From assembly GCA_046352935.1 (NCBI GenBank), contig JAXMGR010000021.1, positions 6,089 to 70,088 on the forward strand: DNA of 64,000 bases. The letters run 5' to 3'. This DNA is from Steroidobacteraceae bacterium (GTDB lineage: Bacteria; Pseudomonadota; Gammaproteobacteria; Steroidobacterales; Steroidobacteraceae). Shown one piece after another: positions 4,609-41,951 of the stretch. Both the position numbers and the translations under genes were made by a program. Within the stretch, counting starts at the first letter, position 1. Each line of letters starts with the position of its first letter. The notes under the pieces were generated by a model. The model saw nothing but the letters and a program-made list of their open reading frames with translations, made no database searches and was not told the DNA's origin.

Positions 4609-4685
4609 GCATGCCGCTCCTTGCAAAGATCGGACTCGAATCTAGCACTGCTTCAGGATTGAACCAAAGACACCGGGGAGCGATC

Positions 4686-10119: not shown

Positions 10120-10173
10120 GTGCCCGCGCCGGCGCCGCGCAGTGGCGGCCCCCGAGCTGCCGTCCCTCCGCTG

Positions 10174-10602
10174 CTATTCCGGTACCGTCTGGCCCGACCC
10201 GCCCAGTTCGGCCGGGAAATCCCTGAGTTTCGGCAGCCCGTCCTTCATGCGCAGCACGGCCTCCGAATAATTGACGTGAACGCCGGGCCTGAACGGAACG
10301 GTGGGAATCATCGCTGCGAAGACGTCCGTCAGCCCCAGTGTCGGATGCACGGTGAGCAGATGTCCGCCGCACCGCGTGCAGAAGTGGCGATCGCTGCTGC
10401 CCGACTTGTTGAAGCGTCCGACGAGCTCGGCGCCCCGGGTGATCCTGACGTTCGCCGGTTTCCACAGCGTGAATGCGTTGACCGGGCCAGCCGACCAGGA
10501 ACGACAGGCGCTGCAGTGGCAGTAGCCCATCGCCTCGGGCGAGCCGGTGACTTCGATCGAAACTGCTCCGCAGAAGCAGGTGCCGGTGTGTTGGTCGGAC
10601 AT
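10174..10602 (-). CDS. GFA (glutathione-dependent formaldehyde-activating / CENP-V) family Zn protein
   Basis: MSDQHTGTCFCGAVSIEVTG...GYCHCSACRSWSAGP...HFCTRCGGHL shows the Cys pattern of the GFA fold. RBS CAGGAGA lies before the ATG at 10602. Confidence 0.8.
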   Translation of the reverse strand: MSDQHTGTCFCGAVSIEVTGSPEAMGYCHCSACRSWSAGPVNAFTLWKPANVRITRGAELVGRFNKSGSSDRHFCTRCGGHLLTVHPTLGLTDVFAAMIPTVPFRPGVHVNYSEAVLRMKDGLPKLRDFPAELGGSGQTVPE

Positions 10603-10792
10603 GTGAGTCTCCTGATGTAGGGGTGTTGCCGGGTCCCCCGCGTCACGCGACCTGCAGGCCGCTGACACAGGATGCGCCCGGCGCGACGCTCTCGCGGGTC
10701 ATCCCACCGTCCGGCACCGGAACCCGCGCTCCGGTGCCGGACCGTGGTCGACGGGGCGTCATGCAATGCAGCAGGCGCCACTCCCGGAGGCG

Positions 10793-11017
10793 TCACGCCG
10801 CCTTGCCGCTGGCGAGTGCGTGTACGTCGGCTGCAGCCAGCGCCTTGCCGCCGATCGCCCAGTCGCCGCCTTCGAACTCCTGGATGCGGACCCAGGTGAC
10901 CGGTCGCATGTTCTCGCCCTCGACCTCGAGCATGGCCCGCGTGACCTTGTCGATGAGTTCCTGTTTCTGCTTCGGCGTGAAGACATCCTTGATGACGTCG
11001 ATGGTGACCAGTGGCAT
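10793..11017 (-). CDS. 4-oxalocrotonate tautomerase family protein
   Basis: [34 protein letters not shown]. It has the catalytic N-terminal Pro after Met, a 74 aa length, and RBS GAGGAGA. Confidence 0.8.
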
Positions 11018-11160
11018 GTCGGTTCTCCTCGGGATCTGGTTGCCGGTGCCGGAACCATTCCGGCGCCCGTGGTGCAAGCGTCCCGCTCCCCGGCCACGAA
11101 TGCTTGAACACCGCATGGAGAATCCGTGGAGGTTCGTGGGAGTCCGGCCGGCCGCGCGCT

Positions 11161-12747
11161 ATGCTGACCTCCGTGATCTACCGCTTCGGCACCTTCGAGC
11201 TGGACACGTCCCGCGTCGAGCTGCGCGCGGACGGTGTGGTCCGGCCGCTGGAGCCGCAGGTGTTCGCGCTGCTCGCGCTGCTCGTCGAGAATCGCGAACG
11301 TCTGCTGTCGCGCGACGAAATCATCGAGAAGGTGTGGGATGGGCGCGTCGTGTCCGACGCGGCCGTGGCCAGCCGCATCAAGTCGGCGCGCCAGGCGCTG
11401 GGTGATGACGGCAAGGCGCAGCGATTCATCAAGACCGCCCACCGCCTGGGCTTCCGCTTCGTCGCCGAGGTGAGCGTCGCGCGCAGTCCCGCCGCGCCGC
11501 AGGTCGCCGACGAAGCTGCGGCAGCAGCCGATGCGGGTGCAGCACCCGCGGCAGAGACGGTGCAGCCGTCGATCGCCGTGCTTCCCTTCCGCCTCATCGG
11601 CAGCCCCGGCCCGTATACGGCCATCGGGGACGCGCTGGCGGATGAACTGATCATCGAGCTCGCGCGCCTGCGCTGGCTGTTCGTCACGGCCCGGGGCTCG
11701 TCTTTCCGTCTGCGCGAACCGGATGCCGACATGGGCGCGATCGGCCGCCTGCTCGGTGTGCGCTACTGTCTGTCGGGGACCGTCGAAGTCGCGGGAGCAG
11801 GACTCGCCGTCACGATCGAGCTCGTGGACACCCGCAACGACGGCATCGTATGGGCAGACCGGTTCTCCGGGGCGCTCGACGACGTGCACCGGTTCCGTGC
11901 CGACATCGGTGCGCGAATCCTCACCGCGCTGGAGGCCCGGATTCCGCTGCACGAAGCCGCTCTGGCACGTCTCGCGGTGCCGGAGAGCCTCGACGCCTGG
12001 TCGGCCTATCACCTCGGCCTGCAGCACATGTACCGCTTCAACCGCCGGGACAACGCCGCGGCGACGGCGCTGTTCCAGCAGGCGGTGACCCTGGATCCCC
12101 ACTTCGCGCGCGCCCACGCGGGCCTGTCTTTCGTGCACTTCCAGACGGCGTTCCTGCGGCACACGGACGATCTCGCGGGCGAGATCCGGCTCGCACGTCG
12201 CTTCGCCGAGCGTGGCTGCGAATTCGACCCGCTGGACCCCTTCGTGAATTTCACGATGGGGCGCAGTTTCTGGCTCGAGGGTGATCTCGCGAGCGCGCTG
12301 ATCTGGCTCGAACGGGCGACCTCGATCAGCCCCAACTACGCACAGGGCATCTATGCCCGCGCCTGGACCGAGACGCTGGCGGGACAAAGCCTCGAAGGCC
12401 GCCGGCACGTCGACCTGGCGATGCGCCTGAGTCCCCTCGATCCGCTCCACTACGCGATGCTGGGAACCCGGGCCTTCACGCACATGGTGCTGGGCGAGGA
12501 CGCCGAGGCCGCCCTCTGGGCCGAGCGCGCCGCACGCGCGCCCGGCGCGCATGTGCTGATCGCCATGATCGCTGCGGCGGCCCATGGCCTGTCGGGTGAC
12601 GACGTCCGTGCCGCGGCGTGGGCGGCCGATGTTCGGGCACGCAACCCGGTGCTCACGCGCGAGGATTTCTTCCGTGCATTCCCCATGCGGCCCGAAGCGA
12701 CGCGCGCACGCGTCGCGGATGCCCTTCTGCGCTGCGGATTGCGCTGA
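11161..12747 (+). CDS. winged-helix (OmpR/CadC-type) DNA-binding transcriptional regulator with C-terminal TPR-like region
   Basis: MLTSVIYRFGTFELDTSRVELRADGVVRPLEPQVFALLALLVENRERLLSRDEIIEKVWDGRVVSDAAVASRIKSARQAL...IKTAHRLGFRF matches a trans_reg_C domain. The C-terminal half is helical-repeat rich (W/Y...A...P periodicity). Confidence 0.75.
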   Translation: MLTSVIYRFGTFELDTSRVELRADGVVRPLEPQVFALLALLVENRERLLSRDEIIEKVWDGRVVSDAAVASRIKSARQALGDDGKAQRFIKTAHRLGFRFVAEVSVARSPAAPQVADEAAAAADAGAAPAAETVQPSIAVLPFRLIGSPGPYTAIGDALADELIIELARLRWLFVTARGSSFRLREPDADMGAIGRLLGVRYCLSGTVEVAGAGLAVTIELVDTRNDGIVWADRFSGALDDVHRFRADIGARILTALEARIPLHEAALARLAVPESLDAWSAYHLGLQHMYRFNRRDNAAATALFQQAVTLDPHFARAHAGLSFVHFQTAFLRHTDDLAGEIRLARRFAERGCEFDPLDPFVNFTMGRSFWLEGDLASALIWLERATSISPNYAQGIYARAWTETLAGQSLEGRRHVDLAMRLSPLDPLHYAMLGTRAFTHMVLGEDAEAALWAERAARAPGAHVLIAMIAAAAHGLSGDDVRAAAWAADVRARNPVLTREDFFRAFPMRPEATRARVADALLRCGLR

Positions 12748-12795
12748 GCGCCCGCGATCGGCGCGGACGGCGCGACCGCGATCGGCACGCACGAA

Positions 12796-12823
12796 GAAAA
12801 GGCCCCGTTCCCGGGGCCTTTCC
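12796..12823. terminator. bidirectional rho-independent terminator between the convergent regulator gene and hppA
   Basis: GAAAAGGCCCCGTTCCCGGGGCCTTTCC forms a 9-bp GC stem (AAAGGCCCC/GGGGCCTTT) flanked by an A-run and a T-run. It could therefore terminate transcripts from both strands. Confidence 0.7.
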
Positions 12824-12878
12824 TGATCAACCGACGGCACTGCGAAGCGCGGGCCTCGCAGCGTGGCCGTTCAGATCC

Positions 12879-14927
<2,049 letters not shown>

Positions 14928-14995
14928 CAGGGCTCCTCCCCGCAAGGGATTGTTATACGCAACCGGGCCCGTCGTCGGGCCCGGAGGGGGCGCGA

Positions 14996-16282
14996 CTATA
15001 TCACGAAGTCCGTTTTCAGCTTCCGGCGCACGGCGACGAGCTTCGGCCGGACGTAGTCGGGGAGGCCGTTGCGGTAGGGGGGGTAGGCCTCGCCCGCGAT
15101 GAGCGGTTCGAGATAGCGCCGGCAGGCGGCCGTGATGCCGAAACCGTCCTCGGTGATGTAATGGCGCGGGACCATTTTTTCCTTGTTGGCCACGGAGTTG
15201 AGCGGCACGTGGCCGATGGTCCAGCGGTAGGGCTTCGACGACCGGCGCAGGATCACCGGCATCACCGATTGATGCCCCGCCACCGCCAGCTCGACCGCGG
15301 CCCGGCCGACCGCGAAGGCCTGCTCCACGTCGGTCTTCGAGGCGATGTGGCGGGCGGCCCGCTGCAGGTAGTCCGCCAGCGCCCAGTGGTACTTGAGGCC
15401 GAGCCTGTCCTTGACGAGCGCGGCGACGGCCGGCGCGGCGCCGCCGAGCTGCGTGTGGCCGAAAGCGTCCTTCGTACCCATGTCGGCGAGGAACCGGCCG
15501 TCCGCATGGTGGACGCCCTCCGACACGACGATGACGCAGTAGCCCACGTCGGCGACGGTCTGCTTCACGCGGGCGAGGAAGCGCTCCTCGTCGAAGGCGA
15601 TCTCGGGGAACAGGATGATGTGCGGCGGATCGCCAGCCCTGCGGCCCGCGAGCCCGCCCGCGGCCGCGATCCAGCCCGCATGGCGCCCCATGACCTCGAG
15701 GATGAACACCCGCGTGGAGGTGCGCGACATGGAGGCGACGTCGAGCGCGGCCTCCCTCGTCGACACGGCGACGTACTTGGCGACCGAGCCGAAGCCCGGG
15801 CAGCAGTCGGTTTCGGGCAGGTCGTTGTCGACGGTCTTCGGCACGCCGATGCAGGTGACCGGGTAGCCGAGCCGGTCGCCGATCTCGGCCAGCTTCGCGG
15901 CGGTGTCCATGGAGTCGTTGCCGCCGTTGTAGAAGAAGTAGCCGATGTCGTGGGCGCGGAAGACCTCGATGAGGCGCTCGTATTTCGCGCGGTCCTTGTC
16001 GAGGTCGCGGAGCTTGTAGCGCGCCGAGCCGAACGCACCGGCCGGTGTCCAGGTCAGCGCCTTGACGGTCGCGGCGTCCATGCGGCCCGTGTCGATGAGG
16101 TTCTCGGTGAGCGCCCCGACGATGCCGTCGCGACCCGCATAGAGCCGCCCGATCTGGCGTGGATGGCGGCGGCAGGCCGTGATCACGCCCGCCGCCGAGG
16201 CGTTGATGACGGCCGTGACCCCGCCGGACTGGGCGTAGAAGGCGTTGCGCGGAGCGGGTCTGGCCGACTTCTTCGTGCTCAT
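14996..16282 (-). CDS. pfp: pyrophosphate-dependent 6-phosphofructokinase (diphosphate--fructose-6-phosphate 1-phosphotransferase)
   Basis: [35 protein letters not shown] has Asp at the position of E. coli PfkA Gly104, and [10 protein letters not shown] has Lys at the Gly124 position. Both substitutions are classic PPi-specificity markers. The gene lies 68 bp upstream of hppA on the same strand. Confidence 0.9.
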
Positions 16283-16431
16283 GGGCGGTCCTTGCGAAAG
16301 CCCCGGTCGGGGCGTCGATGCCGGTTGGCGCAAGGATAGCCCATCGCTCCCCCGTTTGACGTGTCCGGACGCGGCGGGCAGGATGGCCGCCGCACGCCCG
16401 GCGCCCGCCGGCGTCCGTGGAGAGTCGACGA

Positions 16432-17085
16432 ATGCGTTTGGTGTTGTTGGGTGCGCCGGGATCCGGTAAGGGCACCCAGTCGCAGAAGCTGGTGCAGAAG
16501 TACGGTGTCCCGCAGATCTCGACGGGCGATCTGCTGCGCGAAGCGGTCCGCACCGGCACGGAGTACGGGCGGAAGGCCAGGGCGGCGATGGATGCCGGCG
16601 GCCTTGTCGACGACTCGATCGTGCTCGGCATCATCCGCGAGCGGCTGGCCGAGCCCGATGCGGCCCGCGGCTTCATCCTCGACGGCTTTCCGCGCAACAC
16701 GGCGCAGGCCGACGCGCTCGGGCGGCTGCTCGAAGACATCGGCAAGCCGCTGCAGGCGGTCGTGCTGATGCAGGTCGACACGGGTGCGCTCTTCAAGCGC
16801 TTGACCGGTCGGCGTACCTGCAGGGTCTGCGGCGCGGTGTTCAACGTGCACACGAATCCGCCCGTGCCGGGTCCCGCCGGCACGCCCTGCGCCCAGGGGC
16901 ACGATCTCGCGCAGCGCGCCGACGACAACGAAGCGACCATCGGCAAGCGGCTCGAGGTCTACGAACAGCAGACGGCGCCGCTCATCGAGTACTACCGCGG
17001 TCGGGGCCTGCTCAGGGTCGTCGATGCCGACGGTGAGCTGGATACCGTGTTCGCGCGCCTCGAGAAGGCGCTGCCCGCGGCCTGA
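16432..17085 (+). CDS. adk: adenylate kinase
   Basis: [36 protein letters not shown], with [10 protein letters not shown]. The long lid has [15 protein letters not shown]...[14 protein letters not shown]. Confidence 0.95.
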
Positions 17086-23780: not shown

Positions 23781-23815
23781 GAAATCCTATGAAATCCCAT
23801 GAAGTCCTATGAATC
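23781..23815. repeat. phased 10-bp direct repeats (3.5 units) in a local AT-rich patch upstream of the ACAD operon
   Basis: GAAATCCTAT GAAATCCCAT GAAGTCCTAT GAATC. The period is exactly 10 bp. The only clearly low-GC intergenic patch I saw in the window. Confidence 0.6.
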
Positions 23816-23965: not shown

Positions 23966-26233
23966 ATGACTTCCGAACATGCGACTCGGCGTGCGCTGCC
24001 GGGCGATCTTCCCTCGGACGACGACCGGCGGATGCTGCGCGAGGGCGTCCGTAGCCTGCTCGCCGGAGAATGGCCGGTGGAGAAGGCCGGCGGTTCCACC
24101 AGCGATCCCGCCCGGATCGGCGTCGTGTGGGCCGGCCTTGCGGGCATGGGCCTCGCTGGGCTCGGCATCGATCCCGCCCAGGGTGGCCTGCGCGAAATTC
24201 TCGTGGTCATGGAGGAACTCGGGCGTGCGGGTTGTCCGGCACCGATGGCAGGCGCGGCCTTGACGAACCTGGCCCGCACCGCCTGCGCGGCGGGCGGCGG
24301 GTTCCGCAGCCTGCTGGAAGCGCTGGAGCGTGGCGAGGCAGTGGTGAGCATCGCCTTCGGCAGCAGCGACGGCGATCCGAATTCGGGCGGCGCGCAGTTC
24401 ACCGGGCAGGTACTGAACGGCCGGATCGCGTTCGTCGAGGGTCTGGAGGTCGCCACCGACATCCTGGTGCTCGCCGATCCGGGGCCGGTGCTGGCGCGGG
24501 TGCGTCGGGATGCGCCGGGGCTCGGCGTGGTCGCGACACCGGGATTCGCCGTGCCACCGCTCGCGGAGCTCACGTTCACGAACACGCCGGCCCAGGCGTT
24601 CGCGATGCCGCCCGGGCTCGCCGACGACCTCAACCGGCTGGCGCGCCTCCTGATGATCGCGCGCGCGTTCGGGGCGGCGACGCGGGCTTTCGAGCAGGTG
24701 GTCGCCTACGCGCGGGAACGCGAGCAGTTCGGGCAGCCGATCGGCCGTTTCCAGGCGATCCAGCACAAGCTCGCGACCTGCCTCATGAGCCTGGAGGCGG
24801 TGCGGCCGATGCTGGAGCAGGCGGCTGCGGCCTTCGATGAGGACCAGCCGGTCTGGCGGATGTTCGCCTCGGCCGCCTGGGCGTTCGCCGGGCCGGCGCT
24901 CAGGCAGGTTTCGCTGGAGACGCACCACACCTTCGGCGCCATCGGTTACTCGGAGGAGCACGAGGCGCCGCGGCATTTCCGCCGGGTCCACGCCGATCTC
25001 GTGCGCTTCGGCGGCGTGCGACGGGCCCGCGAGGAACTCGCACGCTACCTGATCGACGAGGGTCAGGACCTGCCGGACCACGACCTCGGTCCCGCCGGCA
25101 ACCGCTTCCGCGAGGAAGTGCGCGCGTGGCTCGGCGAGTACTGGTCGGGCGGGCGCAAGACGCGCTACGACCGCCAGCCGCTGCACGAGCGCTGGATCGA
25201 TCGCGATTTCACGGCCGCGCTCGGCGCGAAGGGCTGGACGACGCTGAGCTGGCCCGCCGCGTTCGGCGGCCAGGCGCGCAGCCCGATGGAACAGCTCGCG
25301 TTCAAGGAAGAGCTGTACCGCGTGCAGGCGCCCATGGTGGGCGAGAGCGAGATCCAGGCGCATGCCGTCATGATGTTCGGCACGCCGGCGCAGCAGGGCG
25401 AGTACCTGCCGAAGCTGCGTACGGGCGAGATCTCGTTCTGCCTCGGCTACAGCGAGCCGCACGCGGGCTCGGACCTCGCGGCGCTGTCGACGCGCGCCGT
25501 GCGCGACGGCGACGAGTGGGTCATCAACGGCCGCAAGGTCTGGACGACGGGCGCCGAGTTCGCGGACTACATGTGGCTCGCGGCGCGCACCGACCCGGAC
25601 GCAAAGCCGAAGCACGCCGGCATCAGCATGTTCATCGTGCCGATGAAGGCACCCGGCATGACCATCCGGCCGTCGATGGCGCTCTACGGTCACACGTTCT
25701 GCGAGGAGACGCTCGAGAACGTGCGAATCCCGGCCGCGAATCTCGTCGGTCCGCTGAACGGCGGCTGGAAGATCCTGACCTCGGCGCTCGCCACCGAGCG
25801 TATCGTGATGGGCAGTTTCGTGGCGCGGCTGCGCGCGGAGTTCGAGTGCCTGCTCGCCTTCCTGCGCGGTGCAGGCCGGTCGCAGGGCGCGGATCCGACG
25901 GTCAGGGACCGCATCGGCGCGCTGGCGGGCGAGATCGAGGCCGCGCGGCAGCTCGTGATCCAGAGCGTGCGGATGATGGAACAGGGCAAGGTGCCGGTGC
26001 ACGAGGCTGCGATGAGCAAGGCGTTCACGGCCGAGCTCATGAGCCGCATGGGCGAGACGGTGCTCGACATCGTCGGTACGGGCGGCACCCTGCACGAGGG
26101 CTCGGCCGGGGCGGTCACCGATGGCCGCCTGGAGCAGAGCCTGCGCCAGTCGATCATGATGGTGGTCGGCGGCGGGTCGGCGGAGATCCAGCGCAACCTC
26201 ATCGCGCAGCGGGGCCTCGAACTGCCGCGTTGA
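23966..26233 (+). CDS. single-chain double acyl-CoA dehydrogenase: N-terminal degenerate ACAD module fused to a C-terminal FAD-binding ACAD module
   Basis: 755 aa, two tandem ACAD-length halves. The N-half has a degenerate FAD loop (AFGSSDGD) and no Glu at either known base position (NRLARLL; VRFGGV). The C-half has GYSEPHAGSD and KVWTTGAEFADY, plus a Glu at the IVD/LCAD-type base position (LATERIVMG), but GGGSAEIQ instead of YEG. Confidence 0.8.
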   Translation: MTSEHATRRALPGDLPSDDDRRMLREGVRSLLAGEWPVEKAGGSTSDPARIGVVWAGLAGMGLAGLGIDPAQGGLREILVVMEELGRAGCPAPMAGAALTNLARTACAAGGGFRSLLEALERGEAVVSIAFGSSDGDPNSGGAQFTGQVLNGRIAFVEGLEVATDILVLADPGPVLARVRRDAPGLGVVATPGFAVPPLAELTFTNTPAQAFAMPPGLADDLNRLARLLMIARAFGAATRAFEQVVAYAREREQFGQPIGRFQAIQHKLATCLMSLEAVRPMLEQAAAAFDEDQPVWRMFASAAWAFAGPALRQVSLETHHTFGAIGYSEEHEAPRHFRRVHADLVRFGGVRRAREELARYLIDEGQDLPDHDLGPAGNRFREEVRAWLGEYWSGGRKTRYDRQPLHERWIDRDFTAALGAKGWTTLSWPAAFGGQARSPMEQLAFKEELYRVQAPMVGESEIQAHAVMMFGTPAQQGEYLPKLRTGEISFCLGYSEPHAGSDLAALSTRAVRDGDEWVINGRKVWTTGAEFADYMWLAARTDPDAKPKHAGISMFIVPMKAPGMTIRPSMALYGHTFCEETLENVRIPAANLVGPLNGGWKILTSALATERIVMGSFVARLRAEFECLLAFLRGAGRSQGADPTVRDRIGALAGEIEAARQLVIQSVRMMEQGKVPVHEAAMSKAFTAELMSRMGETVLDIVGTGGTLHEGSAGAVTDGRLEQSLRQSIMMVVGGGSAEIQRNLIAQRGLELPR

Positions 26234-26345
26234 GCGCGCGGCCCCGCCCGACGGAGCGGGGCAATACATGTGTCTGTGGCCGCGAACGCCGACCGGGGCA
26301 CGCCCATCAGTGACGGGAAACTTGGATGACAGGGGAGCCAGGGTC

Positions 26346-28706
26346 ATGACGGTAGCGGACAACACGCCGATCATCGTCGGTGCAGGGCAATTCACCGAGC
26401 GGCTCGACTCGCCGGGTTATCAGGGGCTGTCGCCTTCCGACATCGCGGCAAAGGCGGCCGAGAACGCCCTGGCCGATGCCGGTGCTGCGCAGGCCCTGCG
26501 CAGTGCGATCGATGTGATCGCGACGACGCGGACCTTCGAGGATTCCGGTCCGGCGCCGGCAGCCTTCGGCAAGACCGACAATTTCCCGCGCTCCATCGCG
26601 AAGCGACTCGGCATCGATCCCCGTTACGCCCTCTGGGAGAAGGCGGGGGGCAACACGCCGCAGCAGCTCGTGAGCCAGTTCTGCGAGGAGCTCGCCGCCG
26701 GCAATGCGCAGGCCGTGCTGCTCGCGGGTGCCGAGGCGATCTCGACCGTGCGCCACCTGTCGTCGAAGGGCGAGAAGCGTGACTGGGCCGAGCACGCGGA
26801 GGGGCAGGTCGAGGACCACGGCTGGGGACTCAAGGGCCTGGTCACGTACTACAACGCCAAGCACCGCATCACCGGCGCACCCGCCGGTTACGCGCTGCTC
26901 GAGAACGCGCGCCGCCGCCGGCTCGGCATGACGCGCGACGCCTACGCGCGCGAAATGGGCCGCCTGTTCGCTCCGTTCTCGCGTGTCGCCGCGGCGAATC
27001 CGTACAGCTGCTCGGCGGTGACCGGCTACACGGCCGAGGACATCATCACCGTCGGCGAGCGCAACCGGATGATCTCGGATCCGTATCCGCAGCGCGTCGT
27101 CGCCAGGGACCAGGTGAACCAGGGCGCGGCCGTCGTGCTGACGACGGTGGGGCGGGCCCGGCAGCTCGGCATCGCCGAGAGCCGGTGGGTCTATCTGCAC
27201 GGCTATGCTGCACTCAGCGAACGCGAGATCATGGAACGGCAGGACCTCGGTGCCTCACCGGCCGCGCGCCTCGCGGCCACGGCCGCGCTCGAGGCCGCGG
27301 GCGTCGGTGCCGATGACATCCGGCACTTCGATTTCTACAGCTGCTTCCCGATCCCCGTGTTCAACGTGGCCTGCGACGCGCTGGGGCTGTCGCCGGAAGA
27401 TCCACGCGGGCTGACCGTCACGGGCGGACTGCCGTACTTCGGCGGACCCGGCAACAACTACTCGATGCATGCGATCGCCTCGATCGTCGAGAAGCTGCGC
27501 GCGGACCCGGGCTGTTACGGTTTCGTCGGCGCGAACGGCGGCTGGATGTCCAAGTACGCGGTCGGCGTCTACTCCACGCGTCCCGCGGCGTGGAAGGCCT
27601 GCGACAGCGAACCGCTGCAGTCACGCATCGATGCCCTGCCGGCGCCGGTCGTGCTGCAGGAAGCTGATGGCGAGGCGATGATCGAGACTTACACGATCGC
27701 CTACCAGAAGGGACAACCGGCGTACGCGCTGGTGGTCGGGCGGCTCGTCCCGGGCAATGAGCGCTTCCTCGCGCTGAGCCAGGACGGCGACGCCGAGACG
27801 CTGGCCGCGATGCTGAAGGAGGATCCGCTGGGCCGGCGCATCCACGTACGTTCCCTGGGCGTCGGCAATCGCTTCGCCTTCTCGGCCCGGCGCCTGGACG
27901 AACTGTTCCCGCCGGGCCCGAAGAAGCTGCGCGATCGCTATGAGCACTGCCTCGTCGAGCGGCGCGGCCACCTGCTCGAGGTCACGATCAACCGCCCCGA
28001 GTCACGCAACAGCCTGCACCCGATGGCCGGCGAGGAACTCGCGGAGATCTTCGACGCCTGGGAGGCCGACGACGATCTCTGGGTCGCGATCCTGACCGGC
28101 GCGGGCACCGAGGCCTTCTGTTCGGGCAACGATCTCAAGTATTCGGCTTCGGGCAAGCCGGTCTGGATGCCGAAGTCGGGGTTCGCGGGCATCACGCGCC
28201 GGCGCCGCGTCAAGCCGCTCATCGCCGCAGTGAATGGCATTGCCATGGGCGGTGGCACCGAGATGGCGCTGGCCTGTGATCTCGTGGTGGCGGACGAGAA
28301 GGCGGTGTTCGCGCTGAGCGAGGTCCGTGTCGGCCTGTTCGCGGGTGCGGGTGGCATCGTGCGGCTGCCGCGCCAGGTTCCGAAGAAGATCGCCATGGAG
28401 ATGATCCTCACGGGCCGTCGCGCGGGTGCCGAGGAAATGCAGGGTTGGGGGCTCGTGAACCGCGTCGTGCCGGCGGGCACGGCGCTCGAAGCGGCCCGCA
28501 GGCTTGCCGAGGAAGTCCTCGAGGGCTCACCGACTTCGGTGCGGCTGTCCATGGAGGTCATGAACCATGCGGAGGGCATCCCTGTGGAGGTCGACGCCGT
28601 GCAGTTCCCGCCGCACGTCATCGACGACCTGATCACCAGCGAGGATGCCTTCGAGGGCCCGACGGCCTTCGCGCAGAAGCGCAAGCCGAACTGGAAGAAC
28701 CGCTGA
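26346..28706 (+). CDS. tri-domain fusion: thiolase-like domain without Cys nucleophile, beta-barrel (TLP1/DUF35-like OB) domain, and enoyl-CoA hydratase (crotonase)
   Basis: 786 aa. The N-terminal ~390 aa have a thiolase fold pattern, but EKAGGNTPQQL sits where thiolases carry the ACxSG nucleophile, and GGLPYFGGPGNNYSMHAI replaces the GHP/C-G-G motifs. Residues ~440-500 (GEAMIETYTIAYQKGQPAYALVVGRL) look like an OB/beta-barrel. The C-terminal ~260 aa are a crotonase (AILTGAGTEAFCSGNDL; AAVNGIAMGGGTEMALACDLVVA; ALSEVRVGLFAGAGG), with both catalytic Glu positions present. Confidence 0.75.
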   Translation: MTVADNTPIIVGAGQFTERLDSPGYQGLSPSDIAAKAAENALADAGAAQALRSAIDVIATTRTFEDSGPAPAAFGKTDNFPRSIAKRLGIDPRYALWEKAGGNTPQQLVSQFCEELAAGNAQAVLLAGAEAISTVRHLSSKGEKRDWAEHAEGQVEDHGWGLKGLVTYYNAKHRITGAPAGYALLENARRRRLGMTRDAYAREMGRLFAPFSRVAAANPYSCSAVTGYTAEDIITVGERNRMISDPYPQRVVARDQVNQGAAVVLTTVGRARQLGIAESRWVYLHGYAALSEREIMERQDLGASPAARLAATAALEAAGVGADDIRHFDFYSCFPIPVFNVACDALGLSPEDPRGLTVTGGLPYFGGPGNNYSMHAIASIVEKLRADPGCYGFVGANGGWMSKYAVGVYSTRPAAWKACDSEPLQSRIDALPAPVVLQEADGEAMIETYTIAYQKGQPAYALVVGRLVPGNERFLALSQDGDAETLAAMLKEDPLGRRIHVRSLGVGNRFAFSARRLDELFPPGPKKLRDRYEHCLVERRGHLLEVTINRPESRNSLHPMAGEELAEIFDAWEADDDLWVAILTGAGTEAFCSGNDLKYSASGKPVWMPKSGFAGITRRRRVKPLIAAVNGIAMGGGTEMALACDLVVADEKAVFALSEVRVGLFAGAGGIVRLPRQVPKKIAMEMILTGRRAGAEEMQGWGLVNRVVPAGTALEAARRLAEEVLEGSPTSVRLSMEVMNHAEGIPVEVDAVQFPPHVIDDLITSEDAFEGPTAFAQKRKPNWKNR

Positions 28707-38439: not shown

Positions 38440-39870
38440 ATGCTGAGACGCACCAAGATAGTCGCGACCCTGGGTCCTGCAACGGACGATCCCGCCGTGC
38501 TGACCGACATGATCCGGGCCGGCGTCGACGTGGTGCGCGTCAATTTCTCCCACGGGCGGTTCGAGGATCACGCGCAGCGCATCGGACGCGTGCGCGAGGC
38601 CGCCGAACGCGCGGGCCGGTACGTGGGGATCCTCGGCGACCTGCGCGGTCCGAAGATCCGCATCGAGCGCTTCGCGACCGGCCGTGTCGAGCTGAAGGAG
38701 GGCGACCACTTCGCGCTCGACCCGGCGCTGGATCCGGAGGCCGGCACCGCGGCGGGTGTCGGCGTGGCCTATCCGGACCTGCCGCGCGACGTGAAGGCCG
38801 GCGACACGCTGCTCCTCAACGACGGACTCATCGCGCTGCGCGTCACGGGTGTCGCCGGCACGCGCATCGACACGGTCGTGACCGTCGGCGGCGAACTGTC
38901 GAACCAGAAGGGACTCAACAAGAAAGGCGGCGGCCTGTCGGCCGCTGCGCTGACCGACAAGGATCGCTCCGACATCCGCATGGCGGCCGAACTCGGCGTC
39001 GATTACCTCGCGGTCTCGTTCGTGCGGTCGGCGGCTGATGTCGAGGAGGCTCGCGGTCTGCTGAAGGCGGCCGGCGGGCACGCGCGCATCATGGCCAAGA
39101 TCGAGCGCGGCGAGGCCATCCAGAACCTCGAGGAGATCGTGCGCGCATCGGACGCGGTCATGGTGGCGCGTGGCGACCTCGGCGTCGAGGTCGGCTATGC
39201 GCAGCTCACCGGTCTGCAGAAGCGCATCATCCAGCTCGCGCGGCGGCACAACCGCATCGCGGTGACGGCGACGCAGATGATGGAGTCCATGATCACGAAC
39301 CCCGTGCCGACGCGGGCGGAGGTCTCCGACGTCGCCAATGCCGTGATGGACGACACCGATGCGGTCATGCTCTCGGCCGAGACCGCGGTCGGCAGGTATC
39401 CGGTCAAGGTCGTGCAGGAGATGGCGCAGGTCATCGAGGGCGCCGAGAAGTGGCACCATTCGCACGCGCGCGAGCGGCATCGCATCGACGGCTATTTCAA
39501 GGGCACCGACGAGGCCATCGCGATGGCGGTGATGTACACCGCGAACCACCTCAACGTGAAGGCCATCGTCGCGCTGACCGAGTCCGGCTCGACGACGCTG
39601 TGGATGTCGCGCATCCGCTCGGACATCCCCATCTACGCCTTCACGCGCCAGGAGGCGACGCGCCGGCGCGTGACGCTGTACCGCGGCGTCCAGCCGATCG
39701 CCTTCGACGTGGTGCAGACCGATCCGGAGATCCTGTACCCGACCATCTTCCATCTGGTCATCGAACTCGGGCTCGCCCGCGCCGGCGACCTGATCATCGT
39801 CACCAAGGGCGAGCTGACCGGTGTCGCCGGCGGCACGAATTCCATGAAGATCCTCGAGGTCCGCAACTGA
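38440..39870 (+). CDS. pyk: pyruvate kinase
   Basis: MLRRTKIVATLGPATDD, with VRVNFSHG, MVARGDLGVE and TQMMESM. Confidence 0.95.
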   Translation: MLRRTKIVATLGPATDDPAVLTDMIRAGVDVVRVNFSHGRFEDHAQRIGRVREAAERAGRYVGILGDLRGPKIRIERFATGRVELKEGDHFALDPALDPEAGTAAGVGVAYPDLPRDVKAGDTLLLNDGLIALRVTGVAGTRIDTVVTVGGELSNQKGLNKKGGGLSAAALTDKDRSDIRMAAELGVDYLAVSFVRSAADVEEARGLLKAAGGHARIMAKIERGEAIQNLEEIVRASDAVMVARGDLGVEVGYAQLTGLQKRIIQLARRHNRIAVTATQMMESMITNPVPTRAEVSDVANAVMDDTDAVMLSAETAVGRYPVKVVQEMAQVIEGAEKWHHSHARERHRIDGYFKGTDEAIAMAVMYTANHLNVKAIVALTESGSTTLWMSRIRSDIPIYAFTRQEATRRRVTLYRGVQPIAFDVVQTDPEILYPTIFHLVIELGLARAGDLIIVTKGELTGVAGGTNSMKILEVRN

Positions 39871-39871
39871 C

Positions 39872-40732
39872 ATGAGCGCTCTCCGTTTCCAGGGCACCGA
39901 CGACTACGTCGCCACGGACGAACTGAAACTCGCGGTCAACGCCGCCGTGACGCTGGGGCGTCCGCTGCTGATCAAGGGCGAGCCCGGCACGGGCAAGACC
40001 CAGCTCGCGCAGGAGATCGCGCGCGGCCTCGGGCTGCCGCTGTTCGAGTGGCACATCAAGTCCACGACCAAGGCGCAGCAGGGCCTCTACGAGTACGACG
40101 CGGTTTCGCGGCTGCGCGATTCCCAGCTCGGCGACCCGCGTGTCAAGGACATCGCCAACTACATCCTCAAGGGCATGCTGTGGCGCGCCTTCGAGAACGA
40201 CACGCGCGCGGTGCTGCTCATCGACGAGATCGACAAGGCCGACATCGAGTTCCCGAACGACCTGCTGCGGGAACTGGACCGCATGGAGTTCTACGTCTAC
40301 GAGACACGTGAACTCGTCAAGGCGCGGCAGCGGCCGGTCGTCGTCATCACCAGCAACAACGAGAAGGAACTGCCGGACGCGTTCCTGCGCCGCTGCTTCT
40401 TCCACTACATCCGCTTCCCGGATCCGGAGACCATGCAGCGCATCGTCGACGTGCACTACCCGGGCCTGAAACAGACGCTGCTGAAGGAGGCGCTCGAGTC
40501 CTTCTACCGCATCCGCGAGATCCCGGGCCTCAAGAAGAAGCCCTCGACGTCCGAGCTGCTCGACTGGATCAAGCTGCTGGTGGCCGAGGACATCCCGCCC
40601 GAGGCCCTGCGCTCCGACGACCAGAAGGTCGTGATTCCGCCATTGCACGGCGCGCTGCTCAAGAACGAGCAGGACGTGCACCTGTTCGAGCAGCTCGTGT
40701 TCATGCACCGTCGCGCGGGGCGCGGGAACTGA
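39872..40732 (+). CDS. MoxR-type AAA+ ATPase (AAA_5 / CoxD-like)
   Basis: Walker A is LLIKGEPGTGKTQLAQ and Walker B is VLLIDEIDKAD. Length 286 aa. It starts 1 nt after the pyk stop. Confidence 0.8.
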   Translation: MSALRFQGTDDYVATDELKLAVNAAVTLGRPLLIKGEPGTGKTQLAQEIARGLGLPLFEWHIKSTTKAQQGLYEYDAVSRLRDSQLGDPRVKDIANYILKGMLWRAFENDTRAVLLIDEIDKADIEFPNDLLRELDRMEFYVYETRELVKARQRPVVVITSNNEKELPDAFLRRCFFHYIRFPDPETMQRIVDVHYPGLKQTLLKEALESFYRIREIPGLKKKPSTSELLDWIKLLVAEDIPPEALRSDDQKVVIPPLHGALLKNEQDVHLFEQLVFMHRRAGRGN

Positions 40733-40775
40733 GGGTCATGGCCGGTTCGCGCAACGCTGGTGGGGCACGGCGGTC

Positions 40776-41951
40776 GTGTTGATACGGTTCTTCTTCCTGC
40801 TGCGCGCGGGTGGTGTGCCGGTGTCCATCACCGAGTTCCTGGCGCTGCTGGAGGCGCTCCGGGCCGGTGTCGCCGGCCTGTCGGCGCAGGATTTCTACTT
40901 TCTCGCGCGCACGGTGCTCGTGAAGGACGAGCGCTGGTACGACCGCTTCGACCGTGTCTTCGCTGCGCACTTCCGCGGGCTCGAGCTCACGTTCGAGGCG
41001 CTGGTCGCGAGCCTGCCCGAGGAATGGCTGCGCAAGCAGAAGGAGCTGTTCCTCAGCGAGGCCGAGAAGGCGCTCGTCGAGTCCCTCGGGGGCTGGGACA
41101 AGCTCATGGAGACGCTGCGCGAGCGGTTGAAGGAGCAGAAGGAACAGCACCACGGCGGCAGCAGATGGATCGGCACCGGCGGCACCTCGCCCTTCGGCGC
41201 CTACGGCTTCAATCCGGAAGGCGTCCGCATGGGCCAGGACGGCAATCGCAGCCGGCGCGCGGTCAAGGTCTGGGACCGTCGGGAATTCGCGAACTTCGAC
41301 GACCAGGTCGAGATCGGCACGCGCAACATCAAGCTCGCGCTCAGGCGGTTGCGCCGCTTCGCGCGCGAGGGCGCCGCCGACCAGCTCGATCTCGATGCGA
41401 CGATCGATCACACCGCGCGCAACGCGGGCCTGCTCGACATCTGCATGGTCCCGGAGCGGCACAACACCGTGAAGGTGCTGCTGTTCCTCGACGTCGGCGG
41501 CTCCATGGACAGCCACGTGCGCGCCTGCGAGGAACTGTTCTCGGCCGCGCGCGCCGAGTTCAAGCATCTCGAGCACTACTATTTCCACAACTTCGTCTAC
41601 GAGTCGGTGTGGAAGGACAACCGCCGCCGCCACGGCGAACGCCACAGCACCACGGAGGTGCTGCGCACCTACGGGCAGGACTACAAGCTGATCTTCGTGG
41701 GCGACGCCAGCATGAGCCCCTACGAGATCGCGCAGCCGGGCGGCAGCATCGAGCACTGGAACGAGGAGGCCGGCGCGGTCTGGTTCCAGCGGCTGCTCAC
41801 CGCCTGGCCGCATCACGTCTGGCTGAATCCCGAGCCCGAGCGCTACTGGGAAAACACGGCCTCGATCCGCATGACGCGCGAGCTGATCGGCGAGCGCATG
41901 TTCCCGCTCACGCTCGCGGGCCTCGACTCGGCGATCCAGGCGCTGCACTGA
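40776..41951 (+). CDS. VWA domain-containing CoxE-like protein
   Basis: C-terminal VWA/MIDAS (LLFLDVGGSMDSH) plus LIFVGDASMSPYE. The N-terminal helical region is typical of CoxE-like partners of MoxR ATPases. The start codon is TTG or GTG (uncertain). Confidence 0.7.
   Translation: MLIRFFFLLRAGGVPVSITEFLALLEALRAGVAGLSAQDFYFLARTVLVKDERWYDRFDRVFAAHFRGLELTFEALVASLPEEWLRKQKELFLSEAEKALVESLGGWDKLMETLRERLKEQKEQHHGGSRWIGTGGTSPFGAYGFNPEGVRMGQDGNRSRRAVKVWDRREFANFDDQVEIGTRNIKLALRRLRRFAREGAADQLDLDATIDHTARNAGLLDICMVPERHNTVKVLLFLDVGGSMDSHVRACEELFSAARAEFKHLEHYYFHNFVYESVWKDNRRRHGERHSTTEVLRTYGQDYKLIFVGDASMSPYEIAQPGGSIEHWNEEAGAVWFQRLLTAWPHHVWLNPEPERYWENTASIRMTRELIGERMFPLTLAGLDSAIQALH

What the first reader, a model, noticed from the sequence alone, without database searches (positions are those of the whole stretch)
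23966..28706. Compact two-gene operon built from unusual fusions: a single-chain 'dead-plus-live' double ACAD followed by a Cys-less thiolase-like / beta-barrel / crotonase tri-domain protein
Seen in sequence, gene 1 (755 aa). It is two ACAD-length modules in one chain. The N-module has a degenerate FAD loop (AFGSSDGD instead of TEPxxGSD) and no Glu at either known catalytic-base position (NRLARLL; VRFGGV). The C-module keeps GYSEPHAGSD and KVWTTGAEF and has a Glu at the IVD/LCAD-type base position (LATERIVMG), while the MCAD-type YEG is GGG.

Seen in sequence, gene 2 (786 aa). It fuses three parts. The first is a thiolase-fold domain in which the nucleophile-Cys segment reads EKAGGNTPQQL and the C-terminal catalytic motifs read GGLPYFGGPGNNYSMH. 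The second is an OB/beta-barrel-like segment (GEAMIETYTIAYQKGQPAYALVVGRL). The third is a crotonase with both catalytic Glu contexts intact (GGGTEMAL; LSEVRVG).

Established knowledge. Alpha2beta2 ACADs in which only one subunit type carries FAD and the catalytic base are known from actinobacterial steroid side-chain degradation (FadE28-FadE29/ChsE1-ChsE2, FadE26-FadE27/ChsE4-ChsE5). A Cys-less thiolase-fold protein (Ltp2) acts there as a retro-aldolase and needs a DUF35 OB domain supplied by the hydratase ChsH2. The M. smegmatis thiolase-like protein type 1 (TLP1) is a thiolase fold lacking catalytic residues, with an extra C-terminal beta-barrel and no assigned function.

Inference. This operon may encode a self-contained dehydrogenase, hydratase and retro-aldol (non-thiolytic) C-C cleavage module for a bulky or branched acyl-CoA, with all partner modules covalently fused and a crotonase replacing the MaoC hydratase. 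That would also suggest a function for TLP1-type proteins. No acyl-CoA ligase, regulator or transporter lies directly adjacent, so the substrate is open.
Basis: partly seen in the sequence, partly recalled or inferred. Interest (0 to 1): 0.7.

Follow-up and report, generated by a model that had tools for sequence, protein, structure and literature searches.

The report
Fused dehydrogenase plus hydratase–thiolase-like operon
Two neighbouring genes encode a single-chain "two-in-one" acyl-CoA dehydrogenase of an already known type and a widespread but never characterised fusion of a thiolase-like protein to an enoyl-CoA hydratase, whose conserved residues suggest it cuts carbon chains by a retro-aldol reaction instead of the usual thiolase chemistry.

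Summary
Gene 1 (23966-26233) is a beta-like module fused to an alpha-like acyl-CoA dehydrogenase (ACAD) module. This architecture is already characterised in CasC of Rhodococcus jostii. Gene 2 (26346-28706) joins three parts: a TLP1 thiolase-like domain (the best PDB match is M. smegmatis TLP1, 4EGV, at E 1e-157), a folded OB-like barrel, and a crotonase with both catalytic Glu.

Neither fusion is rare. The 120 best database hits to each gene are almost all of matching fusion length, from Proteobacteria and Actinobacteria. The pairing recurs: TLP1 is fused to, or next to, the same crotonase subfamily (PRK08252), and it often sits beside alpha/beta-type or fused ACADs.

I found no published function for TLP1.
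- All 156 TLP1 sequences checked carry Y-S-C-[FY].
- This motif aligns in register with the catalytic Tyr302/Cys304 (YDCY) of the steroid aldolase Sal, and with YDCF of TbSLP.
- The thiolase nucleophile position is Gly.

Against it:
- Many TLP1 genes sit beside true thiolases.
- One operon has a full hydratase/SDR/thiolase set plus TLP1.
- No DUF35 likeness was detected for the barrel.

Verdict: a real, recurrent and uncharacterised module. The mechanism is plausible but unproven, and the substrate is unknown.

The parts
23966..26233 (+). Gene 1: single-chain beta-alpha acyl-CoA dehydrogenase (755 aa), CasC-like architecture
   Evidence: ORF and translation. Pfam finds the ACAD N and C domains twice and the middle domain once. 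PDB and NCBIfam matches. About 750-aa homologues are widespread.
23966..25090 (+). Gene 1 N-module (residues 1-375): beta-subunit-like, with no catalytic Glu and a degenerate FAD loop (AFGSSDGD at residue 130)
   Evidence: Best PDB hit is 6wy8_A, the Tcur3481 beta subunit (E 2e-25). NCBIfam IpdE2 matches residues 70-353. No Pfam middle-domain hit. Motifs located.
25091..26230 (+). Gene 1 C-module (residues 376-755): alpha-subunit-like, with an FAD loop (GYSEPHAGSD at residue 494), predicted base E611 (25796-25798) and GGG at 733-735
   Evidence: Aligns with Tcur3483 (E 3.6e-70) and ChsE4 (E 4.6e-64). E611 lies on LNHER[IV], and G735 on the glycine changed in entry 6wy9.
26234..26345 (.). 112-nt spacer between the genes; a GGGGAG Shine-Dalgarno-like site lies about 10 nt before the ATG of gene 2
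   Evidence: Sequence read. No promoter-like or terminator-like site in the scan. The hairpin is no more stable than shuffles (z 0.85). The spacer sequence is not conserved in the 90%-identical relative L010, but its length is similar at 118 nt.
26346..28706 (+). Gene 2: TLP1 thiolase-like domain + OB-like barrel + crotonase (786 aa)
   Evidence: All 120 best homologues have the same architecture.
26346..27578 (+). TLP1 thiolase-fold domain (residues 1-411): G102 at the nucleophile position (26649-26651), Y331 (27336-27338) and C333 (27342-27344) in YSCF, GGL at 360-362, NGG at 397-399
   Evidence: Matches 4egv at E 1e-157. Invariant columns. YSC[FY] in 156 of 156 TLP1 ORFs. Motif alignments to TbSLP YDCF, 9myr_A YDCY, HDCF of SCP2 thiolases and NEAF of a classical thiolase. 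Fold neighbours.
27612..27854 (+). TLP1 additional C-terminal domain (residues 423-503): folded OB-like beta-barrel
   Evidence: Pfam PF18313, E 4.5e-20. AlphaFold model of residues 412-520 has pLDDT 94.8. Foldseek returns 4egv, then SSB, RPA and ribosomal OB folds at E of 0.03 or weaker, with no DUF35 entry in the top 50.
27948..28703 (+). Crotonase domain (residues 535-786), PRK08252/EchA19-like, with catalytic E639 (28260-28262) and E659 (28320-28322)
   Evidence: Pfam ECH_1, E 2e-58. NCBIfam NF006100 scores 265 bits (cutoff 282) and EchA19 scores 261 bits (cutoff 400). PDB EchA1/CaiD-like and EchA19 structures match. Conservation of both Glu.

Best explanation
The two genes form a recurrent acyl-CoA catabolic module.

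Gene 1 is a CasC-type single-chain alpha/beta ACAD. The C-terminal module carries the FAD site and the catalytic base E611. The N-terminal beta-like module completes the FAD and substrate pocket. A homodimer would mimic the alpha2beta2 enzymes used for bulky acyl-CoAs. It makes a 2-enoyl-CoA.

Gene 2 takes that product. Its crotonase domain (E639/E659) hydrates it to a 3-hydroxyacyl-CoA. The fused TLP1 domain then most likely cleaves the C-alpha/C-beta bond by a non-covalent retro-aldol reaction of the Sal type. In this scheme Y331 deprotonates the beta-hydroxyl, C333 protonates the acyl-CoA enolate, and G102 sits where thiolases have the nucleophilic Cys. The products would be acetyl- or propionyl-CoA plus an aldehyde or ketone. 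The fusion would pull an unfavourable hydration equilibrium, as the Ltp2 complex does.

Shown here: the architectures, the motif homology, and the genomic association. Inferred: the activity, the stereochemistry, the oligomeric state and the substrate. From neighbourhoods elsewhere, the substrate is probably a bulky, branched or alicyclic carboxylate.
For: Gene 1:
- The C-module aligns with Tcur3483 and ChsE4, including the base and the GGG glycine.
- The N-module best matches beta subunits.
- CasC is the precedent, with the same order of modules.

Gene 2 motifs:
- The four TLP1 loops that replace the thiolase catalytic fingerprints are invariant or nearly so (G102, D329-Y-S-C-F334, G360-G-L, N397-G) in 23 diverse TLP1 sequences and 41 fused ones.
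- YSC[FY] is present in 156 of 156 TLP1 ORFs.
- The MsTLP1 paper places these loops at the active site.
- The TLP1 profile aligns YSCF in register with TbSLP YDCF. It hits 9myr_A at coordinates that put Y and C on the YDCY seen.
- Tyr302 and Cys304 of CtSal, and Tyr294 of TcLtp2, are experimentally catalytic.
- The full TLP1 profile hits 6ok1 (Ltp2) at E 7e-6 and 9myr at E 5.5e-5. Ltp2 is also a fold neighbour (TM 0.67-0.73).

Link between TLP1 and the crotonase:
- About 54 metagenome loci have a PRK08252-type ECH within 3 kb of a stand-alone TLP1.
- In a Methylobacterium plasmid the TLP1 and ECH genes share a start/stop overlap.

Link to ACADs:
- Fused ACADs lie next to TLP1 or TLP1-ECH in the window and in L010, L046, L158, L171 and L172.
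- Alpha/beta pairs lie next to it in L017, L023, L032, L045, L074 and L078, and one lies nearby in L001.
- ACAD is the commonest Pfam family among 149 neighbour ORFs of 26 fused loci (11 proteins). Thiolase_N and 3HCDH_N each occur at most once per batch.

Rationale for coupling: Ltp2 cleavage is needed to overcome the unfavourable hydration equilibrium.
Against: - No activity data exist for any TLP1. MsTLP1 was shown only to lack thiolase activity.
- TbSLP, the closest motif match, has no assigned function beyond very weak malonyl-CoA decarboxylation.
- In about 55 loci TLP1 lies directly downstream of a genuine thiolase.
- In L174 it sits in an operon that also has an SDR and an SCPx-type thiolase with an OB-fold protein. 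That is a complete oxidative and thiolytic set.
- An aldehyde dehydrogenase is adjacent in only a few loci (3 of 149 neighbour ORFs).
- Mycobacterial TLP1 genes show no ECH or ACAD neighbours (33 of 80 genome loci have only a luciferase-like neighbour).
- Ser replaces the Asp of YDC[FY].
- The loop holding GGL and the GGPGNN stretch is modelled at low confidence (residues 360-369).
- My neighbourhood annotation used BLAST against a small reference set and a GC3 filter, so some genes were missed.
Confidence: 0.45

Rival explanations
1. TLP1 catalyses a different enolate-forming C-C cleavage. The likeliest is decarboxylation of a carboxylated acyl-CoA (an alkylmalonyl- or glutaconyl-type intermediate), acting before or after the hydratase. 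A conventional dehydrogenase and thiolase then finish the cycle.
For: TbSLP, the best motif match (YDCF), decarboxylates malonyl-CoA weakly. True thiolases flank TLP1 in about 55 loci, and an SDR plus a thiolase flank it in L174. The same Tyr/Cys pair and oxyanion hole could serve protonation after loss of CO2 (inference).
Against: The SLP activity is extremely low (kcat 0.005 per s). No carboxylase or dicarboxylate-specific gene was seen to recur beside TLP1. Covalent fusion to a hydratase is explained more simply by use of the hydration product.
Confidence: 0.2
2. The TLP1 domain is a non-catalytic partner. It would be a CoA-ester-binding or pocket-extending pseudo-enzyme, like the beta ACAD module or the inert MaoC domain of ChsH2. 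It would help the crotonase accept bulky substrates or dock other enzymes. C-C cleavage would be done by ordinary enzymes encoded elsewhere.
For: MsTLP1 has no thiolase activity and lacks all thiolase catalytic residues. Steroid-type pathways use inactive paralogous partners repeatedly. A thiolase is adjacent in many loci.
Against: Polar residues at all four former catalytic loops are invariant across sequences that are only 33-56% identical overall. That is the pattern expected of an active site. The Tyr and Cys match residues proven catalytic in Sal.
Confidence: 0.2
3. The crotonase domain itself performs both hydration and cleavage (HCHL-like hydratase/lyase) or another crotonase-superfamily reaction, and TLP1 has an unrelated role.
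For: Crotonase-fold enzymes can catalyse retro-aldol and retro-Claisen reactions (established knowledge: HCHL, BadI).
Against: The domain's best matches are simple hydratases: the PRK08252 subfamily, EchA19 and EchA1/CaiD-like structures. Both hydratase Glu are present. No test against HCHL was run.
Confidence: 0.05
4. The two genes are neighbours by chance and act in different pathways.
For: The region around them is housekeeping. Each family also occurs without the other. The spacer is 112 nt.
Against: The same pair in the same order occurs in L010 and L171. It occurs divergently in L172, in reverse order in L046 and nearby in L158, across Proteobacteria and Actinobacteria.
Confidence: 0.05

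Closest known systems
CasC, the fused acyl-CoA dehydrogenase of Rhodococcus jostii RHA1 (cholate C5 side chain)
   Same: One chain holds two ACAD modules. Only the C-terminal module has the catalytic Glu. The N-terminal module is a beta-like partner needed for FAD binding. It is encoded next to a fused hydratase gene (casD).
   Different: CasD is a double MaoC hydratase, not TLP1-crotonase. The substrate here is unknown, and no steroid genes are in the window.
Alpha2beta2 steroid ACADs: Tcur3481-Tcur3483 (6WY8) and ChsE4-ChsE5 (4X28)
   Same: The C-module aligns over its full length with the alpha subunits, including the LxxER base and the GGG glycine. The N-module best matches the beta subunit.
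   Different: The subunits are covalently fused here in beta-alpha order. All equivalog models score far below their cutoffs.
MsTLP1, thiolase-like protein type 1 of M. smegmatis (PDB 4EGV)
   Same: Residues 4-504 align at E 1e-157. They share the replaced fingerprints (Gly for the nucleophilic Cys, YSCF, GGL, NGG) and the same extra six-stranded barrel.
   Different: MsTLP1 stands alone, is monomeric and has no ECH or ACAD neighbours. Here a crotonase is fused to the C-terminus. No function is known for either.
Steroid side-chain retro-aldolases Sal (CtSal-ShyDUF35, 9MYR) and Ltp2 (TcLtp2-ChsH2DUF35, 6OK1)
   Same: They are thiolase-fold proteins of the SCP2 branch without the nucleophilic Cys. 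A Tyr sits at the first position of the fingerprint-3 motif, and in Sal a Cys sits at the third. They are physically coupled to the preceding hydratase and work after an alpha/beta ACAD.
   Different: They are dimers that need a DUF35 domain supplied in trans by a MaoC-type (R-specific) hydratase. Here the barrel is in cis and not detectably DUF35-like, and the hydratase is a crotonase. The motif is YSC[FY], not YDC[Y] or YDH[F]. Fold-alignment identity is about 19%.
TbSLP, the SCP2-thiolase-like protein of Trypanosoma brucei (5AB4-5AB7)
   Same: It is the best non-TLP1 match to the motif region, with YDCFP against YSCFP, and a close fold neighbour.
   Different: It has no barrel domain and no hydratase fusion. 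Its only reported activity is very weak malonyl-CoA decarboxylation.
EchA19 of M. tuberculosis and the NCBIfam PRK08252 crotonase subfamily
   Same: They are the best family-level matches of the C-terminal domain. The stand-alone ECH beside TLP1 in L120 passes the PRK08252 cutoff (391 bits).
   Different: The window's domain scores below both cutoffs: 265 against 282, and 261 against 400. It is fused to TLP1.

Membership tests
CasC-type fused alpha/beta ACAD | Two ACAD-length modules in one polypeptide | tested here: met
   Pfam finds the N and C domains twice in 755 aa. The two halves match different PDB subunits.
CasC-type fused alpha/beta ACAD | Catalytic Glu only in the C-terminal module | tested here: met
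   E611 aligns with the LNHER[IV] Glu of Tcur3483 and ChsE4. By my manual alignment, the N-module has Leu at that position and Gly at the MCAD-type position.
CasC-type fused alpha/beta ACAD | One FAD per chain, bound with help from the N-module; homodimer | not testable with these tools
   Needs purified protein. The CasC precedent comes from the literature only.
CasC-type fused alpha/beta ACAD | Sequence orthology to CasC and activity on steroid C5 acyl-CoAs | not tested
   The CasC sequence was not at hand. There are no steroid genes in the window.
TLP1 (PRK08257 / Pfam TLP1_add_C) | Passes the curated family model over the full length | tested here: met
   NF006105 scores 707.3 bits against a cutoff of 683 over residues 1-512. 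PF18313 scores 71.8 bits against a cutoff of 26.1.
TLP1 (PRK08257 / Pfam TLP1_add_C) | Thiolase fingerprints replaced by Gly, YSCF, GGL and NGG | tested here: met
   G102, Y331-S-C-F, G360-G-L and N397-G-G are present. They match the description of MsTLP1.
TLP1 (PRK08257 / Pfam TLP1_add_C) | Extra C-terminal six-stranded barrel | tested here: met
   The model has pLDDT 94.8 with six strands. The top Foldseek hits are the 4egv chains.
Thiolase (true, thiolytic) | Nucleophilic Cys, His of GHP, and a second Cys (CxG or HDCF context) | tested here: not met
   The nucleophile position is Gly102, GHP is replaced by GGL, and CxG by NGG.
Sal/Ltp2 steroid retro-aldolases | Tyr at the first position of the fingerprint-3 motif (catalytic base) | tested here: met
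   Y331 aligns with the Tyr of TbSLP YDCF. By alignment coordinates it also falls on the Tyr of YDCY in 9myr_A. It is invariant.
Sal/Ltp2 steroid retro-aldolases | Catalytic acid: Cys at motif position 3 (Sal) or a second Tyr (Ltp2 Tyr344) | tested here: met
   C333 aligns with the Cys of YDC[FY] and is invariant. I did not map the equivalent of Ltp2 Tyr344.
Sal/Ltp2 steroid retro-aldolases | Obligate complex with a DUF35 (zinc ribbon plus OB) domain of a MaoC hydratase | tested here: not met
   No DUF35 or MaoC gene lies at the locus. The cis barrel gives no DUF35 hit in the Foldseek top 50. The hydratase is a crotonase.
Sal/Ltp2 steroid retro-aldolases | Retro-aldol activity on a 3-hydroxyacyl-CoA | not testable with these tools
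   Requires an enzyme assay.
Crotonase-type enoyl-CoA hydratase | ECH_1 fold with both catalytic Glu | tested here: met
   ECH_1 scores E 2e-58. E639 and E659 lie in GGGTE and SEVRVG and are conserved in 41 of 41 and 39 of 41 fused homologues. The match to rat ECH E144/E164 rests on my recall of that motif.
EchA19 / PRK08252 equivalogs | Score above the curated cutoff | tested here: not met
   265.2 against 282 for PRK08252, and 260.6 against 400 for EchA19.

The most novel reading that the evidence does not exclude
TLP1-type proteins are a third, large and phylogenetically broad family of thiolase-fold beta-hydroxyacyl-CoA retro-aldolases, after Ltp2 and Sal. They would use a Sal-like Tyr/Cys dyad, carry their own OB barrel in cis, and partner with a crotonase (S-specific) rather than a MaoC hydratase. 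Together with alpha/beta ACADs they would form a dehydrogenase-hydratase-lyase 'aldolytic beta-oxidation' module. That module would bypass the 3-hydroxyacyl-CoA dehydrogenase and thiolase steps for branched or bulky non-steroid carboxylates in many Proteobacteria and Actinobacteria.
Probability: 0.35. Interest if true: 0.75.

Novelty: new variant of a known kind. Interest (0 to 1): 0.55.

Why it matters
TLP1 has had a crystal structure since 2012, yet I found no assigned function in the literature available here. The family is large: 917 representatives of 50%-identity clusters at E below 1e-30. Its members are annotated as 'acetyl-CoA acetyltransferase', which they cannot be. The fusion and neighbourhood links to a crotonase and to alpha/beta ACADs, together with a Tyr/Cys pair matching the proven catalytic dyad of Sal, turn this open question into one enzyme assay with defined point mutants. 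If the hypothesis holds, aldolytic side-chain cleavage would extend beyond steroid catabolism. Genome annotation of hundreds of clusters would improve, and a new aldolase scaffold for C-C bond chemistry on CoA esters would become available. If it fails, the recurrent module still marks an uncharacterised catabolic step.

Tried and rejected
1. The divergent class-III aminotransferase as a pathway partner. Rejected: in the 90%-identical relative L010 two unrelated genes separate it from the pair.
2. The idea that casC-casD is the same operon. Rejected: CasD is a double MaoC hydratase.
3. The barrel as a DUF35 relative. Foldseek on a confident model gave only 4egv and generic OB folds. This means 'not detected', not 'disproved'.
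4. Fold search with the TLP1 domain to separate aldolases from thiolases. It was uninformative: archaeal DUF35-partnered thiolases, TbSLP, SCP2 thiolases and Ltp2 all score a TM of about 0.65-0.73.
5. Promoter and terminator scan, and folding of the spacer hairpin. Nothing significant. The spacer and upstream sequences are not conserved in L010.
6. The SCPx-like proteins of L007 as stand-ins for Ltp2. They lack the Tyr motif, so I did not use them.
7. Literature searches for Rv1867, TLP1, thiolase-like plus retro-aldol or fitness, and Steroidobacter clusters. No functional data on TLP1 turned up.
8. My first greedy longest-ORF neighbour selection picked antisense ORFs in high-GC DNA. I replaced it with a GC3-filtered set.
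9. The plasmid collection gave only 4 full-length relatives. None lies in a pathway with a known substrate.

Full report
**Observation**

Gene 1 is 23966-26233 (755 aa) and gene 2 is 26346-28706 (786 aa). All quoted motifs are present.

In gene 1, Pfam sees the ACAD N- and C-terminal domains twice but the middle domain only once, at residues 492-585. In gene 2, Pfam sees TLP1_add_C (423-503) and ECH_1 (541-785). NCBIfam places residues 1-512 above the curated cutoff of PRK08257.1-4, a model named 'acetyl-CoA acetyltransferase'. Residues 4-504 align with the M. smegmatis TLP1 crystal structure 4EGV at E 1e-157.

**Gene 1**

The C-module (residues 376-755) aligns over its full length with the FAD-bearing alpha subunits Tcur3483 (E 3.6e-70) and ChsE4. 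E611 lies on their LNHER[IV] motif. The GGG at 733-735 lies on the TFGGG stretch whose central Gly is Ala in the variant entry 6wy9. The N-module best matches beta subunits: Tcur3481 at E 2e-25, and NCBIfam IpdE2.

The two modules share no significant BLASTP similarity. This is therefore a fusion of anciently diverged alpha and beta genes, not a recent duplication.

The architecture is already characterised. [quoted passage not shown] Proteins of about 750 aa with this layout are common in Cupriavidus, Variovorax, Pseudomonas, Paraburkholderia and others.

Gene 1 is thus a new member of a known kind. The label 'dead' is too strong for its N-module.

**Gene 2 architecture**

All 120 best homologues (57-100% identity, 756-815 aa) have the same TLP1 + barrel + ECH layout. 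They come from Steroidobacter denitrificans (87% identical), Burkholderia, Paraburkholderia, Ralstonia, Noviherbaspirillum, Sphingobium, Amycolatopsis, Streptomyces and many metagenomes.

The TLP1 family as a whole has 917 representatives of 50%-identity clusters at E below 1e-30. About 12 of the best 150 have the fusion length; the rest are stand-alone proteins of about 510-525 aa.

The barrel segment, modelled alone, folds with pLDDT 94.8. It matches 4EGV and then generic OB folds (SSB, RPA, ribosomal proteins) at E of 0.03 or weaker. No DUF35 entry appears in the top 50. It is therefore a folded OB-like domain and not a linker, as also described for MsTLP1. Kinship to DUF35 was not detected.

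The crotonase domain keeps both hydratase Glu, E639 and E659, which are conserved in 41 of 41 and 39 of 41 fused homologues. It is closest to the PRK08252 subfamily and to EchA19, but scores below both cutoffs.

**Active-site reasoning**

The MsTLP1 paper maps the thiolase fingerprints onto TLP1 as follows: the nucleophilic Cys becomes Gly, NEAF becomes YSCF, GHP becomes GGL, and CxG becomes NGG. In 23 diverse TLP1 domains (33-56% identical) these replaced loops are invariant or nearly so, along with other polar residues: D56, E130, Y247, R298, D329, H375 and K403. YSC[FY] is present in 156 of 156 TLP1 ORFs recovered from genomes and metagenomes. This pattern argues for a working active site rather than a decayed one.

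The 2025 Sal paper shows that the retro-aldolases carry a Tyr in this same motif:
- TcLtp2 has Y294DHF.
- CtSal has Y302DC304Y, with Tyr as the base and Cys as the acid. Y302F and C304A/S are inactive.
- TbSLP has Y297DCF.

A backbone Gly contacts the substrate hydroxyl (PMC12329534).

A profile of the TLP1 motif region aligns 'DlYsCFPiav' with TbSLP 'GLYDCFPICL'. It also hits 9myr_A at coordinates that place Y and C on the 'IYDCYTI' seen; that YDCY motif identifies 9myr_A as CtSal. The same position aligns with HDCF of SCP2 thiolases and NEAF of a classical thiolase. The full TLP1 profile also reaches TcLtp2 (6ok1, E 7e-6) and 9myr (E 5.5e-5).

Fold search places TLP1 among SCP2-type and DUF35-partnered thiolase-fold proteins, including TbSLP and Ltp2, but it does not discriminate between them.

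**Genomic association**

*The window itself.* The pair lies among housekeeping genes: Mur ligase, a LON-domain protein, a CAAX protease and a class-III aminotransferase upstream; TraB/GumN, a phosphoesterase, AdoHcy hydrolase, SAM synthetase and tkt-gap-pgk-pyk downstream. A 90%-identical relative (L010) keeps the pair in the same synteny, but two unrelated genes lie between the aminotransferase and the pair. The aminotransferase is therefore not a partner.

*The same pair elsewhere.* It appears with more informative neighbours:
- L171 has ECH, double ACAD, TLP1-ECH and an ADP-forming acyl-CoA synthetase, all on one strand.
- L172 has a DctPQM TRAP transporter, a double family-III CoA-transferase and a double ACAD, divergent from TLP1-ECH.
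- L046 (Streptosporangiaceae) has TLP1-ECH followed by a double ACAD.
- L158 has a double ACAD nearby.
- Unfused alpha/beta-type ACAD pairs flank TLP1 in L017, L023, L032, L045, L074 and L078, and one lies nearby in the S. denitrificans cluster L001.

*Neighbour families of fused loci.* I scanned 149 GC3-filtered neighbour ORFs from 26 fused loci with Pfam:

| Pfam family | Proteins |
|---|---|
| ACAD | 11 |
| TetR | 10 |
| CoA-transferase III | 7 |
| ADP-forming acyl-CoA synthetase | 6 |
| SDR | 6 |
| AMP-ligase | 4 |
| Aldehyde dehydrogenase | 3 |

Thiolase_N and 3HCDH_N each occur at most once per batch.

*Hints about substrate.* Other contexts include a P450 with ferredoxin, alcohol and aldehyde dehydrogenases (L004), and a linalool dehydratase-isomerase-family gene (Pfam Ldi) with DUF1302/DUF1329/MMPL uptake genes (L009). 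These hint at hydrophobic, branched or alicyclic acids. That is a hint only.

*Link between TLP1 and the crotonase.* In the metagenome set, 54 of 80 loci have a stand-alone TLP1 within 3 kb of an ECH. Nearly all show the arrangement ACAD(-) ECH(-) <> thiolase(+) TLP1(+). In L120 that ECH passes the PRK08252 cutoff (391 bits), which is the same subfamily as the window's fused domain. On a Methylobacterium plasmid the TLP1 and ECH genes overlap start to stop, in the same order as in the fusion.

**Evidence against the lyase reading**

The conserved cluster above puts TLP1 directly after a genuine PRK06025 thiolase. The Methylobacterium operon also has an SDR and an SCPx-type thiolase with an OB-fold protein, and no ACAD. 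Mycobacterial TLP1 genes, including the type of the archetype, show only a convergent luciferase-like neighbour (33 of 80 genome loci). TbSLP's only reported activity is feeble malonyl-CoA decarboxylation. No TLP1 has a measured activity.

I therefore give the specific retro-aldol mechanism about 0.4-0.45. The rest is split mainly between another enolate-forming cleavage, such as decarboxylation, and a non-catalytic partner role.

**Comparison and novelty**

The closest known system in logic is alpha/beta ACAD, then hydratase, then thiolase-fold aldolase, as in steroid side-chain degradation: ChsE1-ChsE2/ChsH1-ChsH2/Ltp2, or Scd/Shy/Sal. In those systems the aldolase is physically coupled to the hydratase, and cleavage pulls an unfavourable hydration equilibrium.

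This locus differs in four ways. The hydratase is a crotonase. The coupling is covalent. The OB domain is in cis. The thiolase-fold protein belongs to the separate TLP1 family.

It fails the DUF35/MaoC criterion for Sal/Ltp2 membership, so it should not be filed there. It may still work like them.

The transketolase of the window is 75-80% identical to proteins of Gammaproteobacteria and Steroidobacteraceae MAGs. The host is therefore an uncultured relative of that group.

**Verdict**

Gene 1 is ordinary for its known class. Gene 2 and its recurrent pairing are common in sequence databases but functionally uncharacterised. A concrete, testable mechanism is now available.

Noticed in passing
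L099-L159 (about 55 metagenome loci), L080, L088; example L120:4505-9524: A conserved four-gene arrangement: ACAD(-) and PRK08252-type ECH(-), divergent from a PRK06025 thiolase(+) and a stand-alone TLP1(+). No 3-hydroxyacyl-CoA dehydrogenase was seen. In L120 it is followed by 4-hydroxyphenylpyruvate dioxygenase and a glyoxalase-family gene.
   Followed up: partly
L174 (Methylobacterium aquaticum plasmid pMaq22A_2p) 5671-13793: An operon of ABC substrate-binding protein, ADP-forming acyl-CoA synthetase, TLP1, ECH (start/stop overlap with TLP1), SDR, SCPx-type thiolase and OB-fold protein. It is an unfused version of gene 2 embedded in a complete oxidative and thiolytic set.
   Followed up: no
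window 23781-23813: A tandem repeat, GAAATCCTAT x3.3 (TRF score 52), lies in the divergent intergenic region between the class-III aminotransferase and gene 1. It could be an operator. It is not conserved in the 90%-identical relative L010.
   Followed up: partly
window 26241-26262: A GC-rich hairpin (GCCCCGCC...GCGGGGC) lies in the 112-nt spacer between gene 1 and gene 2. It is no more stable than shuffled sequence (z 0.85) and is not conserved in L010.
   Followed up: yes
window 39848-41951: An AAA_5 ATPase (MoxR/CbbQ-like) followed by a VWA CoxE-like protein lies directly after the tkt-gap-pgk-pyk cluster.
   Followed up: no
L001 (Steroidobacter denitrificans CP011971) 886-16754: The 87%-identical TLP1-ECH sits in a different and much larger cluster: an AMP-ligase, four luciferase-like oxidoreductases, an unfused alpha/beta ACAD pair (only 36% and 27% identical to the gene 1 modules), an SDR, an ADP-forming acyl-CoA synthetase, an NMO-family protein and a second SDR. 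Gene 2 is more similar to this copy than the window's transketolase is to named Steroidobacteraceae proteins (75-77%). This suggests gene mobility or strong constraint.
   Followed up: partly
L015, L019-L070 (mycobacterial loci): In mycobacteria, stand-alone TLP1 is almost always followed by a convergent luciferase-like oxidoreductase gene and lacks ECH or ACAD neighbours (33 of 80 genome loci).
   Followed up: no
L009:1240-3000: A linalool dehydratase/isomerase-family gene (Pfam Ldi) and an AMP-ligase lie next to DUF1302, DUF1329, BNR, TLP1-ECH and MMPL genes in a soil metagenome contig. This is a possible link between TLP1-ECH and monoterpene acid catabolism.
   Followed up: no
L002:1056-8120, L172:2042-4495, L061, L077: Double-length (about 800-aa) family-III CoA-transferase proteins recur beside TLP1 or TLP1-ECH.
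   Followed up: no
fused homologues of gene 2 (P0003-P0120 subset): In 7 of 41 fused TLP1-ECH proteins the motif is YSCY instead of YSCF. This matches the last residue of Sal's YDCY.
   Followed up: no
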